From the NCBI GenBank assembly GCA_000182565.2, contig KQ257475.1: a stretch of DNA of 64,000 nucleotides; one strand, given 5' to 3'. Position numbers and translations under genes: made by a program. Numbering within the stretch: the stretch's first letter is position 1; each line of letters opens with the position of its first letter. This stretch comes from Spizellomyces punctatus DAOM BR117. Taxonomy: Eukaryota. The notes under the pieces were generated by a model that did no database searches, had not been told where the DNA came from, and saw nothing but the letters and a program-made list of their open reading frames with translations. Shown one piece after another: positions 983 through 6,709 of this stretch.

Positions 983-2437
983 TAAATGTGCGTGGATATG
1001 CGTATGTAAAAGACGAATCTTTGACTTGTTTGAATGGTATTTGCTGCTGTTTTTGTGATTCAACACAAAAGCACACTTGCAAAGTAAGAAAACGACAACG
1101 ATGAACGACGATGAACGAAACGAAATGCGGAAAGCGCAGGAGGCCAGGGGGAGGGAGGGGGAGGGTTCATTATAATATCAATGATAATGTGATCAAAGCA
1201 TTAATTTATACATTTATGGATATATTGAACACCATGCCACTTGAGAATGACTGTCCAATGACCCGCACAGATACAAACACGTCGCGTATCTTTTTGTCAA
1301 AGCACATGACTTTTGGACTCACCGCACGTGGACTCCATTTGATTGGTGCATCATTCGTAAGGCATGACGTCGTTCGACAGCGGCATGGCTTATCTTTCTA
1401 CTTTGGGAAGATGACATGCCGTCCCACGATCTGACCATCGGACAAGTTCTTACGGTTGTTTCCGGACAGGCCTTCTCCCGGACTCTTTTGCTTGAAAACA
1501 ACGGAGACGGCTGGGGATGTTGGGGGAGAGTGACAGGTGTGATTGCTGCAATTCACCAAGCAGAAGACATACACTGCCTTCGCCATCTGCAGCAAGTGCA
1601 ATGGATATCCATCTTCATCAGGGCGTATATAGACTTTTTACGTTATGGAACGCTGTGCCACGGACTGTCAGCGGGGGAGGGCGTTTGGTGACAAGTTCAG
1701 TTTTGCTCAGCGGCAGGCAAGGCTCAGGCGCAAATGGGGTGTCAAAGGATGCGCGCAATAATGGTCTATTTTTGCGGATTTATCACCCGACCACGTCGTC
1801 GCTCAAACGCCGGGAGGCCTTGCTTGCCCGTCACATCTCCATACTACCGCTCCTTTTAGTTCTCCCACCGCACTAACAATTGATCAATGTGCTGACTGAC
1901 ATCTGCCTTAAAGTAAAGTGCAATGCTAGTAGTTCAAGTCCGTCATGGTAAACGCGGTTGACAGTCCCGTGATGAAAGCTTACTTAACCGGAAGGACCTG
2001 CAACTCCTTCTGCTGGCGAAAGATGGACAGCCCTTACCCTCCTGCCACCTCCTGCCAATTTCAAAAGTGTCGGATGACGACGATGATCAGGTACATTTGT
2101 CGCCCATTCACCGGTACACTCCCAGACGGTTAATGTAACAAAGTATGCAATGATCTCAATACCAAAGACTGTTAAAGACTACCCTGCATCAACAGACCCC
2201 CACAATAACACCTCATCACACTAGCCACAAGTGTTGTTCTAGACACCTGCATGTAATAGATCACCGCCCCTTCATTGACACCAAAACAAAATGAACCTTG
2301 CATTTATTAAGGAAAACCCCCATCCGTCGTCCAATAAAGCATCCCAAAGCCAGGATTCTTCCCAATAGAAAGGCTCGCAAACAAGTAAACAAAAACAAAG
2401 TCAAACCAAAAGCGTTCCGACTGAATCAACACTAGCA

Positions 2438-2534
2438 CACGTGACTGGCACAGTCATGTAACTCTTGTTTTTCTTTCGAATTTCGACCTCGCGACCTTTT
2501 TCACACTTCTTGTCCTTCCTCCTGGGTTTATAAA
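2438..2534 (+). promoter_or_regulatory. SPE2 promoter: CACGTGAC E-box, GGCACAGTCAT motif, TATA box
   Basis: CACGTGAC 2438-2445, GGCACAGTCAT 2447-2457, TATAAA 2529-2534 followed by a pyrimidine-rich leader. Confidence 0.5.
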
Positions 2535-2700
2535 GGTTCATCCTTTTCTATTCCCCTGCAGCGTTTTCCTTCCAAAGGCATTGCCCTTTGAAGCCTCCGT
2601 ACTCGATATCACTCAGCAATCTCTCGGTTTTCTTGCTTTCGATCGTCGCTTCATTTCCCCAAACGATCGTGCCGTCATCTGCTCCCGTTCAGGAAAAGCC

Positions 2701-2727
2701 ATGTTGAGCGTCTTGTCCTGCATATAG
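2701..2727 (+). promoter_or_regulatory. Short AUG uORF (MLSVLSCI*) in the SPE2 leader
   Basis: gccATGTTGAGCGTCTTGTCCTGCATATAG; first AUG after the TATA box. Confidence 0.55.
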
Positions 2728-2808
2728 CATTTCTTTCTAGTCGTGTTTGGGTCTCGCCCTATATCTCTTGGTTTCCCCCTCTTTATTGTATTCGATATTC
2801 TTCCAAAC

Positions 2809-3226
2809 ACGGAAGCCACCAGCGCCGCGACGATTCCGCTCAGCCCCTGCTATGCTCCGCTCGCCTACCACTGCTATCACTTCCTCCTTCCCATCTTGCG
2901 AATCGGTTTCCTTCTCAACTTTCAGGTGAGTTTCCGGTCCAGTGTCTCCTCCAATAAGGAGAGAAAATCTTCTGTAGCTTGTAGTTTTTGTTTGCACCTG
3001 GGATGTCCGAGCTATAGCCATACATACAGAAGATAACGACGCATTCCGCAATATTGAACGCTTGTCCAAACATTTACAAGACTCCAGTCCTCATCTTAGT
3101 TTCCTCCATGTTGACTGATAGGTACCACGCGGAAAAGCTTCCCAGATAGGCAGCCTTCCAATCGATATTGTTTCTGTCTGCCCTAAACTCTTGACGGTCA
3201 AACGCGCTCCAAAAGAACCACCCTAA
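2809..3226 (+). promoter_or_regulatory. Putative spliced non-AUG (ACG) uORF, 73 aa, ending KRAPKEPP*
   Basis: aacACGg at 2809; intron 2926-3121 (CAG|GTGAGT...TTGACTGATAG); frame stays open across the junction to TAA 3224-3226. Confidence 0.45.
2852..3149 (+). promoter_or_regulatory. Spliced AUG uORF nested out of frame (MLRSPTTAITSSFPSCESVSFSTFRYHAEKLPR*)
   Basis: gctATGc at 2852; same intron 2926-3121; TAG 3147-3149. Confidence 0.4.
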
Positions 3227-3291
3227 CAGCCCCTAGCCCCTTTGCAACCTTTTACGTTTAATATTTGTCTTGAGATCTCGTGTGTTTGGGA

Positions 3292-4815
3292 ATGATCATC
3301 AAGGAATCGCTCGTTCAAGGCTTGAACAGCCACCTTTATAGCTCGACATACCCTAAACCTTTGCCTTCCGAATCTGCCGAGCAGCATACGCTGTGCGGCT
3401 TTGAAGGACCCGAAAAAGTTCTTGAAATTTGGTTTCGTCCTGTTAACGGGAAAGAATCCCCTATTCTCATCGATGCGCACCGTGCGGTAGCGCGTGAGGT
3501 AGAGTCTTTGAGTGAAGACGATGTATCTGTTGGCGATATTGATGAGATTGTCGACTGTGCGCGTCCAAAGCACGATTATCCGGTTGATGTCTTTCAGGAC
3601 AACCATGGAAGATGGCAGTATCGCCGGTCGGGTTTGAGGTTGGTGGACCGTGCAGTTTGGGAAGAAATGCTGCGGATTGTCAAGTGCCAGGTGCTGAACG
3701 TTGTCAACAATGAGTGCGTAGATGCATACTTGCTGAGGTAATTTTCAATCTGTGTCGCATTGCTTGAAACGGACAGATGTTGACGGCCTGCTTTCATTAG
3801 TGAATCATCCATGTTCGTTTACCCTCATCGTTTGATTTTGAAAACATGCGGTACTACGACGCTTCTTCACGCCGTCCCAAAGATTTTGGATATTGCGAGA
3901 GAGTATTGTGGTTTTCACGATGTCAATGCTGTCTTTTATTCTCGCAAGGCATTCTTGTTTCCTGAGAAACAAGTCTGGCCTCATGGTCGGTGGGGCGATG
4001 AGGTTTCGTACCTGGACAAGCTCTTTTGCAAGGACGAGTTTGAAACAGCAGGCTACGTTTTGGGCAAGATTAACGGTGACCACTGGTGCCTATACATGTG
4101 CACGCCGCACCGTCTTAGCTTGGACCTCGACGGTGTCGAACTAGCCGAATCGTCATCCTCACACGACAGCGACGCTGGGTCCTCTATTAACGAAGAGGAG
4201 GAGGAAGAGGATGATGTTACTCTGGAGATTCTGATGACCCAATTGGATCCGGCTGCCATGAAGGCGTTTTGGCGTACAGCAGAAGAGCTTCGTGCTGCCA
4301 AGGACGGCAAAGACATCTCTCAAGAGGGTGCTCAACGTGTTTACCACGCAACCGGGATTGCGGACATCTACCCAAAGGCCACCGTCGATGACTATCTGTT
4401 CGATCCATGCGGATACTCTCTCAACGGACTCTTGGGCCCGTACTACTTCACCATCCACGTGACGCCGGAAGATGTGTGCTCCTACGCTTCCTTTGAGACA
4501 ACTGTCCCGGTGAAGCGTTTTTACTCCCACATCCGTGCCGGATCGGAAAGTGAATACGACACATTCGAAGACGTGATTCAACGCGTCGTGTCCGTTTTTC
4601 GCCCTGGAACCTTTTCTACGACTTTGATATCGCGCAAGAGCGTTGGACACAAGCATGGCAAGACGGATGGGCTGTTGGAAGGCCATATTGGTGGATTCCG
4701 GCGCCGTGACCGGATTGTGCAGTGTTTGGGCAAGTGGGATCTGGTGTTTTGCCATTATGATCGACATGTGGATGGTACGATGATGAGAAAGGGGACCAAA
4801 ACCGCTCTTCGATGA
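3292..4815 (+). CDS. SPE2: S-adenosylmethionine decarboxylase proenzyme
   Basis: GFEGPEKVLEIWF, LKTCGTTT, FDPCGYSLN, TIHVTPE..SYASFET; intron 3738-3800 restores the LSESSMFV self-cleavage site. Confidence 0.97.
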
Positions 4816-6709
4816 CTGATAACTTTTGGGGTTTTTGACACTGGGATTTTTATGGATGATGCGGGGGGATCTTTTGACCTTTTCATGTTTTGATACGGGC
4901 CCGTCTTTCTGATATGCAGAAATGTTGTGGCTACTTGGTTATTCGACACTATCAATATACAATTGACCTGAAAGCAGTTTTCATGTAGTTTTTCTGGTTT
5001 TGGCGTCCCAGTTTGACATGCCATCCATACCGGAATGCCCGTTCAGACTAAATCTGGAGTAAACAGCAACACAGTTTACCGTTGGAACAAACTCAACGTC
5101 TCTTCTTGTCACTTGAGGTCCATGTTTGTTCACATTGTCATTCTGTTTTCTTCAAAGACACAATGCACAGAATCAATTGAAACCTACATGTTCAAACCCA
5201 AAAGTTGACAAATGAGGATTATAGCTCACTGACGGCAACACATTCCCGCGGGTGACGGTCGTATACCCAACCAATCACGTTAGGCAAGATGCTTTCATTA
5301 ACCGATCATCTAAGGCTTCAGCTCGTTCATCACGCCAGACGTTGAGGGTGTAGTCCAGTCTGGTGGAGGAATCGGCGGGTTAGGTGCAATGTCGTCGATG
5401 CAATAGAGATGATGGATGTGCGTAGGATGAATTAGTACAATCCTATACTATGGAGATCTCGTCGACAGAGCCATCGATCGATATGTCAAATGAGGAGATG
5501 AATTCGTCAATGGAATGGTTTCGAGGATCGTGGTGTGGGCTTCTTATGATTTTTGCCAGGATAGAGGGAGCCGAAGCGAGAATGAACCATTGACGTTTTT
5601 CGGTTTTTAAGCAACGCCTGCTTGGTTTCTTTTATGATTTTAGACTCTGTAAAGTTGCCACGATGGGTCATTGGAAGAGCATAGTGATCTCTTTACTTCC
5701 GGCTAGAGCCAAATCACCTTGAGGCTCCATTCTAAAAATGTACATTGTACATTGTATTAGCTAGCATCCATAACGAGCCCGAGTTTTTTTTTATCAAATT
5801 TGCGACTGTCCATCCCAGGACGATGAAGATGGAAATTTGGATGAATGAGCTCACAAGGAAGCGCATCTTAGAACGTAGGAAAAAGCCAGTATCTATCTTT
5901 CCTCAGACAGTTTTTGGTAGAGCGATTCACTATATATAATGTGCATTTCAGTGGCAACTTTGCAGACAATGTACTGTACATGCCCCGCAATGTGATTCAG
6001 GCCATAGTGTTATGTTTCTCGAAGAGCTTACCAGACTGCCTAACTACCGATTGCCAACGGCTCTCTATTTGAAAGGTAAACATTTCCTCGACAATGTACA
6101 TCCACACATTTAGCCTGTCAACCTTCTCCACAATACAGGCCAGGGCCAAGATATTCTGCTTGACAACGCATTGGCCGCCCTGTACTCCCCCTCCATTATT
6201 AAACAAATGAAAGACCCATAGAAAAAAAAGTAAACGCTGTTTACGGAAAAATAAACACAAGTGATGCGCACTGCGAGTCAAATAACCAAACTGTTGCGCT
6301 GTGATGGAGTTGCCAATGATCTGGGGATGATGTAGCTCTGGACTATAGTTGAACAAGAAACCACACATGGCTTTCAGGTTACCATGCCTTTTGAGACTTG
6401 ACCATACAATGGACAACTTTTGCAGAAATCAGTGTTCCTTGCAATCCATCCAGCCTGGAAAGAAAAGTGCTTTTTGCTTTCAGAACTGCGATTTGGGCTG
6501 TAGTGGGTACTGGGCAATGCGCAAGTTGAGTAAGCAACCAGCCCGCAGTTAACCTTCAGATTCGAGCCATCCATTCCATCCGCTAGAATACTGTGCCACA
6601 CATTAGAACCTTCCAACTGCCCCATACATTTTCTTCACGAGTCAGTGCAGGCTCAACACTCTTTCACCGTCGTCGACCTTACATTTTTGCACCTCCTACG
6701 AGCATTACC

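What the first reader, a model, noticed from the sequence alone, without database searches (positions are those of the whole stretch)
2809..3226. Hidden spliced non-AUG uORF ending KEPP-stop upstream of AdoMet decarboxylase
Seen: the leader (about 750 nt from TATA to ATG) has a strong donor at 2926 and an acceptor at 3121. Splicing joins one open frame: (ACG)EATSAATIPLSPCYAPLAYHCYHFLLPILRIGFLLNFQ|VPRGKASQIGSLPIDIVSVCPKLLTVKRAPKEPP*, stopping 65 nt before the main ATG. The ACG has optimal context (A at -3, G at +4). Known: mammalian AdoMetDC uses the MAGDIS uORF, plants use a tiny/small uORF pair ending in PS-stop, and AZIN1 uses a non-AUG uORF whose PPW motif stalls in an eIF5A/polyamine-dependent way and queues ribosomes. 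YAPLAY loosely recalls the plant APLGY segment. Inference: a polyamine-sensing stall peptide, invisible to unspliced ORF scans.
Basis: partly seen in the sequence, partly recalled or inferred. Interest (0 to 1): 0.85.

Follow-up and report, generated by a model that had tools for sequence, protein, structure and literature searches.

The report
Upstream reading frames before chytrid AdoMetDC
The long leader of the polyamine-synthesis gene AdoMetDC in the chytrid fungus Spizellomyces punctatus probably does carry a regulatory upstream reading frame, but the better candidate is an ordinary AUG-started one ending Pro-Arg-stop, as in other fungi, not the proposed spliced non-AUG frame ending KEPP.

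Summary
The window is Spizellomyces punctatus DAOM BR117, and the gene is AdoMetDC. Nothing supports that frame. It has no AUG. Its second half is only a 34-codon stop-to-stop stretch. All three frames of the CT-rich leader are long and open. A PP-stop ending arises in 6-7% of shuffles. The only RNA run I could lay was 3'-biased and showed no junction. Leaders of close relatives could not be fetched.

A rival emerged. AdoMetDC leaders on ascomycete-like metagenome contigs carry an AUG uORF ending ...KPR-stop. Its invariant codons are CCC AGA TAA/G, and an intron usually splits the uORF. That 9-mer occurs once in the 64-kb window, at 3141-3149. There it closes the AUG uORFs: AUG 3108 if the leader is unspliced, AUG 2852 if 2926-3121 is removed.

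Verdict: the leader most likely holds an AdoMetDC uORF of the known penultimate-proline kind, here in a new phylum. The idea of a hidden spliced uORF is reasonable, but the chosen frame and start are probably wrong.

The parts
2529..2534 (+). TATAAA box; the transcript start is inferred about 30-40 nt downstream
   Evidence: Sequence. Plus-strand RNA depth is 0.36 in bin 2476-2567 and 2.73 in bin 2568-2659.
2701..2727 (+). uORF1: AUG (G at -3), 8 codons, stop TAG. Same genomic frame as ACG 2809 but closed by this stop.
2809..2811 (+). It lies in the 3' arm of a 9-bp inverted repeat (2742-2750 / 2803-2811).
2852..2925 (+). 5' part of uORF2: AUG with G at -3 and C at +4. Unspliced it ends after 25 codons at TGA 2927-2929, which overlaps the donor.
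2926..3121 (+). Candidate leader intron of 196 nt (GTGAGT...GATAG), not verified by RNA. It holds uAUGs 3003 and 3108 and a 10-bp inverted repeat (2967-2976 / 3025-3034).
   Evidence: No joint and high depth inside it.
3108..3149 (+). 13-codon AUG uORF of the unspliced leader (weak context, T at -3) ending ...YHAEKLPR-TAG.
3141..3149 (+). CCC AGA TAG (Pro-Arg-stop). The only copy of CCCAGATAR in the window on either strand, and identical to the terminus of ascomycete-like AdoMetDC uORFs.
3122..3226 (+).
3292..3737 (+). AdoMetDC CDS exon 1. The start codon column is nearly invariant among 30 chytrid-type homologues.
3738..3800 (+). CDS intron of 63 nt (GTAATT...TTAG). The LSESS processing site spans the junction.
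   Evidence: The two exons add up to 486 codons, the length of the database protein that is 100% identical over the exon-2 query, and that protein carries LLSESSMFVYP across the junction.
3801..4815 (+). AdoMetDC CDS exon 2.

Best explanation
The element is the 5' leader of the S. punctatus AdoMetDC (SPE2-type) mRNA. It is about 725 nt long and carries two AUG uORFs and probably one leader intron. The likely regulatory element is the AUG-started uORF that ends ...K-L-P-R-UAG (CCC AGA UAG, 3141-3149), 142 nt before the main AUG.

Inferred mechanism, none of it shown here. Scanning ribosomes translate the 8-codon uORF1 (2701) or leak past it. Many then start at AUG 2852. If the intron 2926-3121 is removed, this frame runs on for 33 codons to Pro-Arg-UAG. 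If the intron is retained, or a more upstream acceptor is used, the 13-codon uORF from AUG 3108 reaches the same terminus. Termination after a penultimate proline is slow, and I infer that it becomes slower at high polyamine. The paused ribosome would block following scanners and lower re-initiation at AUG 3292, so AdoMetDC synthesis would fall when polyamines are plentiful. This is the known penultimate-proline class of AdoMetDC uORFs. Its nearest look-alike is the ascomycete uORF ending ...KPR-stop.
For: (1) In AdoMetDC loci taken from metagenomes, 31 of the 50 loci with at least 400 nt upstream hold CCN-AGR-TAR 188-685 nt before the protein match. 28 of them hold exactly CCCAGATAR. Several loci are near-duplicates.
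(2) Where the frame is contiguous, it is the end of a 16-18-codon AUG uORF...LLRFLSKPAKPR-stop (L009, L049, L036, L037). In at least 15 genomic loci the uORF is split as ...SKPAK AA|GT...YAG|(G/A)CCCAGATAAC.
(3) The same 9-mer occurs once in the 64,000-base window on both strands (0.63 expected), at 3141-3149 on the plus strand. By my arithmetic that gives about 0.004 for a chance hit in a 727-nt leader on one strand.
(4) It is in frame as the last two codons and stop of an AUG uORF in both the unspliced and the spliced leader. An AUG uORF ending PR-stop arises in 3.1% and 2.1% of 5000 shuffles each.
(5) The layout is the same: a short uORF1 50-150 nt ahead of the main uORF in the ascomycete-like loci and here (2701, then 2852).
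(6) According to Ivanov et al. 2010, AdoMetDC uORFs outside vertebrates and sea squirts always have a penultimate proline (PMC2811004, passages).
(7) The family is older than Pezizomycotina. L037 has the uORF, and its enzyme is nearest to Neolecta (52%) and Saitoella (51%).
Against: No leader of a close relative (Powellomyces, Geranomyces, Gaertneriomyces and others) could be fetched, so conservation within chytrids is untested.

Beyond R-(F/Y)...K..P-R the peptide does not resemble the ascomycete core LLRFLSKPAK. That judgement is by inspection. I made no statistical test.

The candidate acceptor lies 19 nt before the 9-mer, not 1 nt as in the ascomycete-like loci.

The one Neocallimastigomycota-like locus with a leader (L003, 447 nt) has no AUG uORF with a penultimate proline, and it has the 9-mer only inside its CDS. 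Common descent would therefore need losses, and convergence is equally possible.

I noticed the PR ending before I defined the 9-mer, and I looked at several uORF families, so the nominal probabilities are somewhat optimistic.

The splice is unverified. If acceptor 3145 were used, the terminus would be destroyed.

Even for N. crassa, polyamine sensing by the uORF has not been shown. The authors list it as an open question (PMC5640933, section 8).
Confidence: 0.5

Rival explanations
1. The intron 2926-3121 is removed, a fraction of ribosomes starts at ACG 2809, translates 73 codons and stalls at ...KEPP-UAA in an eIF5A- and polyamine-dependent way, queuing the ribosomes behind it.
For: The arithmetic is exact, and the ACG has A at -3 and G at +4. 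The frame ends with two prolines, so it also meets the penultimate-proline rule (PMC2811004). AUG uORFs ending ...KEPG-stop (2 loci) and ...KPP-stop (3 loci) stand before AdoMetDC genes of unidentified eukaryotes in the metagenome set. Acceptor 3145 would keep the same frame (coordinates).
Against: There is no AUG anywhere in the frame. AUG 2701 shares its genomic frame but is closed by TAG 2725-2727. AUG 2852, with a purine at -3, lies 43 nt downstream and would capture most scanners. The exon-2 frame is only 34 codons and is bounded by the acceptor's own TAG. PP-stop arises in 5.8-7.2% of shuffles. The ACG lies in the arm of a 9-bp stem. Every AdoMetDC uORF I saw in the 80 loci starts with AUG. 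The frame reads the shared CCCAGATAG in the wrong register. Pfam gave no hit.
Confidence: 0.08
2. There is no peptide-specific sensor. The uAUGs simply lower translation constitutively, as in many long leaders, and both proline endings, including the 9-mer match, are coincidence.
For: A penultimate proline alone is expected in 25-55% of shuffled leaders. The peptide core is not like the ascomycete one. No conservation data exist. The leader downstream of the uORFs is no more structured than shuffles (z = +1.64). Rfam gave nothing.
Against: The single window-wide copy of a 9-mer that is invariant in other fungal AdoMetDC leaders sits in this leader, in frame, at the end of an AUG uORF. AdoMetDC leaders across eukaryotes very often carry sequence-specific uORFs (PMC2811004).
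Confidence: 0.3
3. Control works mainly at the RNA level. Retention of the leader intron, with premature 3' end formation inside it near 3070, yields short non-productive transcripts, and splicing decides how many uAUGs the mRNA carries.
For: In the 3'-biased run, plus-strand depth is 11.2, 21.1 and 9.8 in bins 2844-3119, against 1.1 in 3120-3211. That pattern is what a 3' end near 3070 would give. N. crassa makes two leader isoforms, one with and one without the uORFs (PMC5640933). The intron holds two uAUGs and a 10-bp stem.
Against: The pile is only about 4% of the depth at the gene's true 3' end. No molecule ends were flagged. The reads may be few molecules or internal priming. No regulation was tested.
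Confidence: 0.07

Closest known systems
Ascomycete AdoMetDC leader uORF ending ...LLRFLSKPAKPR-stop. This is the 'Pezizomycotina' AdoMetDC uORF mentioned by Ivanov, Atkins & Michael 2010, and probably uORF 2 of the N. crassa SDC leader of Li & Breaker 2017.
   Same: Same gene and position in the leader. AUG start. A short uORF1 ahead of it. Identical last codons and stop (CCC AGA TAR). An intron within the uORF. A penultimate proline.
   Different: The peptide core is not recognisably similar. The 3' exon contributes 8 codons here against 2 there. The stop is 142 nt from the main AUG here; in the ascomycete-like loci whose main AUG I placed, it is 281-517 nt away. No 11-bp SDC-type hairpin was found. 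The phylum is Chytridiomycota, not Ascomycota.
Plant AdoMetDC tiny/small uORF pair (small uORF of 48-55 codons ending PS-stop).
   Same: AdoMetDC leader. Two uORFs. A sequence-dependent repressor with a penultimate proline.
   Different: No Pfam match of any leader frame at E up to 10. The two uORFs here do not overlap by one nucleotide. The ending is PR or PP, not PS.
uCC of antizyme inhibitor / ODC homologue mRNAs (near-cognate start, adjacent prolines near the C-terminus). The eIF5A and ribosome-queuing mechanism is recalled from memory and was not read here.
   Different: A different gene. No conservation shown. Strong uAUGs flank the ACG. No tryptophan follows the prolines.
Mammalian AdoMetDC MAGDIS uORF.
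   Same: AdoMetDC leader. A termination-linked stall that blocks scanning.
   Different: Six codons placed 14 nt from the cap, with no proline (PMC2811004). Nothing comparable is present here. uORF1 is 8 codons but lies about 135 nt from the inferred start and is unrelated in sequence.

Membership tests
Penultimate-proline uORFs of AdoMetDC mRNAs (class described by Ivanov et al. 2010) | Lies in the 5' leader of an AdoMetDC mRNA | tested here: met
   Pfam SAM_decarbox E = 5.4e-85. 100% identity to S. punctatus AdoMetDC. RNA depth from about 2568 on.
Penultimate-proline uORFs of AdoMetDC mRNAs (class described by Ivanov et al. 2010) | AUG-started uORF whose penultimate residue is proline | tested here: met
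   The AUG 3108 uORF, and the AUG 2852 uORF after removal of 2926-3121, both end ...L-P-R-stop. Taken alone, this is expected in 25-38% of shuffles.
Penultimate-proline uORFs of AdoMetDC mRNAs (class described by Ivanov et al. 2010) | Peptide conserved among related species | not testable with these tools
   No genome is held for the window. The best metagenome locus is 40% identical. Genome contigs gave one 29% bacterial hit. Peptide searches were empty.
Penultimate-proline uORFs of AdoMetDC mRNAs (class described by Ivanov et al. 2010) | Polyamine-dependent repression of the main ORF | not testable with these tools
   Needs reporters or ribosome profiling.
Ascomycete AdoMetDC uORF (...LLRFLSKPAKPR-stop) | Terminus CCC AGA TAA/TAG | tested here: met
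   One copy in the window, at 3141-3149 on the plus strand. Present in 28 loci.
Ascomycete AdoMetDC uORF (...LLRFLSKPAKPR-stop) | Conserved core L-(L/R)-R-F-x-x-K-P-x-K before P-R | tested here: not met
   Here the sequence is ...T-D-R-Y-H-A-E-K-L before P-R. Only R-aromatic and one K can be lined up, and that needs a gap (inspection). I therefore do not file it as a member of this family.
Ascomycete AdoMetDC uORF (...LLRFLSKPAKPR-stop) | Intron that splits the uORF one nucleotide before CCCAGATAA | tested here: inconclusive
   A candidate intron does split uORF2, but its acceptor is 19 nt before the 9-mer and it is unverified.
Ascomycete AdoMetDC uORF (...LLRFLSKPAKPR-stop) | SDC hairpin (about 11 bp) in the leader (Li & Breaker 2017) | tested here: not met
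   Only a 9-bp and a 10-bp inverted repeat were found, both upstream of the uORF stop. The fold of 3122-3300 is weaker than shuffles. I had no model of the SDC motif. Rfam gave no hit in the window, nor in 6 ascomycete-like loci, so Rfam is not a valid test here.
Plant AdoMetDC small uORF (Pfam AdoMetDC_leader) | Match to the family profile | tested here: not met
   0 families for the three leader frames at E up to 10.
uCC of ODC/antizyme-inhibitor mRNAs | Near-cognate start in good context with no in-frame AUG | tested here: met
ACG 2809 with A at -3 and G at +4. It is the only near-cognate of exon 1 in good context.
uCC of ODC/antizyme-inhibitor mRNAs | Stands before an ODC homologue, with a coding region conserved across species | tested here: not met
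   The gene is AdoMetDC. Conservation could not be tested.

The most novel reading that the evidence does not exclude
The leader is a two-register polyamine sensor. Most ribosomes read the AUG uORF to Pro-Arg-UAG. A minority starts at ACG 2809 and, after the same splice, reads an overlapping frame to Pro-Pro-UAA 77 nt further on. There an eIF5A-dependent stall queues scanners back over the upstream starts. This would be the first non-AUG, intron-assembled stall peptide on an AdoMetDC mRNA. It would come in a lineage whose Pro-Arg-stop terminus is shared at the nucleotide level with Ascomycota, which would imply an ancestral fungal element.
Probability: 0.07. Interest if true: 0.8.

Novelty: new member of a known kind. 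Interest (0 to 1): 0.4.

Why it matters
AdoMetDC is a textbook case of translational feedback by small molecules. Among fungi its uORFs have been reported only for Pezizomycotina (PMC2811004, passages), and their function there is still untested (PMC5640933). A chytrid leader that ends an AUG uORF with the very same Pro-Arg-stop codons would point to one of two things. Either the element goes back to early fungi, or Pro-Arg-stop is a repeatedly selected stalling terminus. Either result narrows what the sensor is. S. punctatus can be transformed (recalled, not checked here), so the prediction can be tested directly. For the scan, the case shows that a 'hidden spliced uORF' idea can be right in kind while the wrong frame is picked.

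Tried and rejected
RNA junction. Of the 14 runs listed, I laid 4.
- X12 (raw RNA, 2294 reads laid, about 6% of the run read) is 3'-biased. It gave no joints, not even for the verified CDS intron, so it cannot decide the splice.
- X6 is genomic: one 1779-nt contig crosses the CDS intron unspliced.
- X1 and X2 cover only parts of exon 2.

Relatives' leaders.
- No genome is held for the window.
- The scan's earlier findings held no look-alike by place or by sequence.
- The metagenome scan found nothing above 40% identity.
- Genome contigs gave one 29% bacterial hit.

Peptide searches.
- The 102-aa unspliced frame 2728-3033 gave no scoring candidate.
- The 34-aa exon-2 frame gave 0 hits among 1.84 billion representatives.
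- Such frames are rarely called as genes, so these blanks say nothing.

Family and structure scans.
- Pfam found nothing on the leader frames.
- Rfam found nothing in 2300-3400 and nothing relevant in 6 ascomycete-like loci.
- There is no significant fold downstream of the uORFs.

Intron statistics. The ORF-continuity screen of the window is crude. It even missed the true GTAATT donor. I use it only as a rough guide to intron length and branch distance.

Rejected readings.
- ORF length as evidence, because of CT-rich composition.
- A snoRNA in the intron, because Rfam is empty and the read pile starts upstream of the donor.
- A structure or complex prediction, because nothing here calls for one.

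Full report
What the locus is. The ORFs 3292-3737 and 3801-4815, joined over a 63-nt intron, encode S-adenosylmethionine decarboxylase (Pfam SAM_decarbox, E = 1.1e-13 and 5.4e-85). The exon-2 ORF is 100% identical to the 486-aa proenzyme of Spizellomyces punctatus DAOM BR117. That length equals the sum of the two exons, and the protein carries the LSESS processing site where the exons join. The next relatives are Powellomyces hirtus (83%) and Geranomyces variabilis (79% and 78%). The start methionine column is nearly invariant in an alignment of 30 chytrid-type homologues, so ATG 3292 is the main start.

The observation. ACG 2809 has A at -3 and G at +4. The only strong donor of the leader is CAG|GTGAGT at 2926, and an acceptor lies at 3121. 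Exon parts of 117 and 105 nt join into one frame of 73 codons that ends KEPP-TAA, 65 nt before the main ATG. The frame is open upstream to 2728 and holds no AUG.

RNA. Of 14 runs listed, I laid four on 2200-4950. Only X12 is raw RNA reads. 2294 reads were laid from about 6% of the run, and they are strongly 3'-biased: depth is 535 in bin 4776-4867 but 0-3 over most of the CDS. Plus-strand depth is 0.2-0.4 up to 2567 and about 2.7 from 2568 to 2843. That places the transcript start about 35 nt after the TATAAA at 2529 and upstream of the ACG. No joint was reported anywhere, not even at the verified CDS intron, so the run cannot test the splice. Depth inside the proposed intron is higher than beside it: 11.2, 21.1 and 9.8 in bins 2844-3119 against 1.1 in 3120-3211. 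Some polyadenylated or internally primed RNA therefore retains this stretch and seems to end near 3070. X6 is genomic DNA, since its contig crosses the CDS intron. X1 and X2 hold only pieces of exon 2, identical to the window.

Is the frame more than chance? No. The second half is exactly one 34-codon stop-to-stop stretch, because the TAG of the acceptor is an in-frame stop. The CT-rich leader has open stretches of 57-121 codons in all three frames between 2500 and 2957. In 5000 dinucleotide-preserving shuffles each, a frame of 30 or more codons ending PP-stop arose in 7.2% (unspliced) and 5.8% (spliced) of leaders. A penultimate proline alone arose in 25-55%. The acceptor is not ideal: the only branch-like motif (TTGAC) puts its A 7 nt from the AG, and the intron would be 196 nt long. 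About ten short intron candidates, which I picked by eye from a crude ORF-continuity screen of the window, are 57-73 nt long. In the six with a recognisable branch motif, and in the CDS intron, I counted 11-21 nt from the branch A to the AG. The screen is heuristic and unverified. The ACG lies in the 3' arm of a perfect 9-bp inverted repeat. No leader frame matches any Pfam family at E up to 10. Rfam finds nothing in 2300-3400.

Conservation could not be tested directly.
- No genome is held for the window.
- The scan's earlier findings have no look-alike.
- The best of 80 metagenome loci is 40% identical.
- Genome contigs gave one 29% bacterial hit.
- Searches with the 102-aa unspliced frame and the 34-aa exon-2 frame were empty, which is expected for uncalled ORFs and is no evidence either way.

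What the distant loci show. The 80 metagenome AdoMetDC loci are mostly ascomycete-like. L001-L003 match Neocallimastigomycota-type proteins at 82-99%, and L039 matches a glomeromycete at 74%. The others are no more than about 52% identical to any early-diverging reference. Most of them are 50-75% identical to one another. Their leaders carry several uORF families, all AUG-started. The large family reads M-x-x-x-D-L-L-R-F-L-S-K-P-A-K-P-R-stop where it is contiguous (L009, L049; variants in L030, L036, L037). In at least 15 genomic loci it is split by an intron: the first exon ends ...SKPAK with AA|GT, and the second begins YAG|(G/A)CCCAGATAAC. 31 of the 50 loci with at least 400 nt upstream have CCN-AGR-TAR 188-685 nt before the protein match. 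28 of them have exactly CCCAGATAR, and several loci are near-duplicates. L037, which has the uORF, is nearest to Neolecta (52%) and Saitoella (51%), so the family reaches beyond Pezizomycotina.

This fits the literature. Ivanov et al. [quoted passage not shown] Li & Breaker 2017 found two uORFs, two 5' splice sites, one 3' splice site and two spliced isoforms in the N. crassa leader, together with a repressing 11-bp hairpin. They left the uORF's role open (PMC5640933; passages, section 8 read whole).

The rival in the window. CCCAGATAR occurs once in the 64,000-base window on both strands (0.63 expected; 47 of 100 shuffles have at least one copy), at 3141-3149 on the plus strand, inside this leader. 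Scaled to a 727-nt leader on one strand, a chance hit has a probability of about 0.004 (my arithmetic). It is in frame as Pro-Arg-stop of an AUG uORF whichever way the leader is processed. The 13-codon uORF from AUG 3108 uses it if 2926-3121 is retained or if an acceptor upstream of 3108 is used. The uORF from AUG 2852 (G at -3) uses it if 2926-3121 is removed, reaching 33 codons. An AUG uORF ending PR-stop arises in 3.1% and 2.1% of shuffles. A short uORF1 precedes it (AUG 2701, 8 codons), as in the ascomycete-like loci.

Limits of the rival. The peptide before Pro-Arg is not recognisably like LLRFLSKPAK. The acceptor is 19 nt, not 1 nt, before the 9-mer. No SDC-like hairpin follows. The Neocallimastigomycota-like L003 has a 447-nt leader without such a uORF. 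I saw the PR ending before I fixed the 9-mer, and I had looked at several families. I therefore do not file the element as a member of the ascomycete family. I file it in the broader, functionally defined class of penultimate-proline AdoMetDC uORFs, with descent or convergence left open.

Mechanism (inferred). Ribosomes translate uORF1 or pass it. Most then start at AUG 2852, or at AUG 3108 on intron-retaining RNA, and terminate at Pro-Arg-UAG, 142 nt before the main AUG. Slow termination after proline, which I infer is enhanced by polyamines, would block scanning and re-initiation. The steps shown here are the gene, the leader, the frames, the shared terminus and the transcript start. The steps not shown are the splice, translation of any uORF and any polyamine response.

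Novelty. No paper in the searched library holds both 'Spizellomyces' and 'uORF'. The single paper with 'chytrid', 'upstream open reading frame' and 'polyamine' is about eIF5, judging from its listing. The element is a new member of a known kind, of moderate interest.

Noticed in passing
L061, L066, L073, L074, L075, L076, L080 (leaders): Seven metatranscriptome-like AdoMetDC contigs of unidentified eukaryotes carry an AUG uORF of 19-26 codons ending ...(F/L)-L-x-D-T-G-(I/F)-S-stop, close to the main AUG. It has no penultimate proline, and its ending recalls the vertebrate MAGDIS uORF. It may be a longer relative of that uORF.
   Followed up: partly
L065, L067; L068, L071, L078 (leaders): There are two further AUG uORF families before AdoMetDC genes of unidentified eukaryotes. 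One ends ...LELFILS-x-S-x-KEPG-stop just before the main AUG. The other ends ...KPP-stop and overlaps the main start. L004 has a uORF ending ...KLDPS-stop, as in the plant type.
   Followed up: partly
L006, L013, L014, L020, L028, L033, L044, L045, L050-L052, L055, L062-L064, L070: In ascomycete-like genomic contigs the AdoMetDC uORF is split by an intron just before its last two codons. The 12 bases CCCAGATAACAC after the acceptor are almost invariant, including synonymous positions and three bases past the stop. That suggests a constraint beyond the peptide.
   Followed up: partly
window 2844-3119: Plus-strand RNA depth of 10-21 in a 3'-biased library, with a drop to about 1 from 3120 on. 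This would fit premature 3' end formation near 3070 inside the candidate leader intron, after UA-rich and A-rich elements at 3012-3060. It amounts to about 4% of the depth at the gene's 3' end and may come from few molecules.
   Followed up: no
window 2967-2976 / 3025-3034 and 2742-2750 / 2803-2811: Two perfect inverted repeats of 10 and 9 bp with loops of 48 and 52 nt. The first lies inside the candidate intron and encloses uAUG 3003. The second pairs the ACG 2809 region.
   Followed up: no
window 3910-4063, 4025-4272, 4465-4730: Contigs from a root metatranscriptome run (X1) and from a run of another labelled organism (X2) are identical to the S. punctatus AdoMetDC exon 2. This fungus, or a near-identical strain, is therefore present in those samples.
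   Followed up: no
window 4903-4916: Many X12 reads diverge from the window in the 3' UTR, with loose ends at 4903/4904 and other letters at 4905-4916. This may be a strain difference, a small deletion or adapter sequence.
   Followed up: no
L081 4001-4744: A Bdellovibrionaceae MAG contig encodes a eukaryote-type AdoMetDC relative (29% identity over residues 110-425).
   Followed up: no
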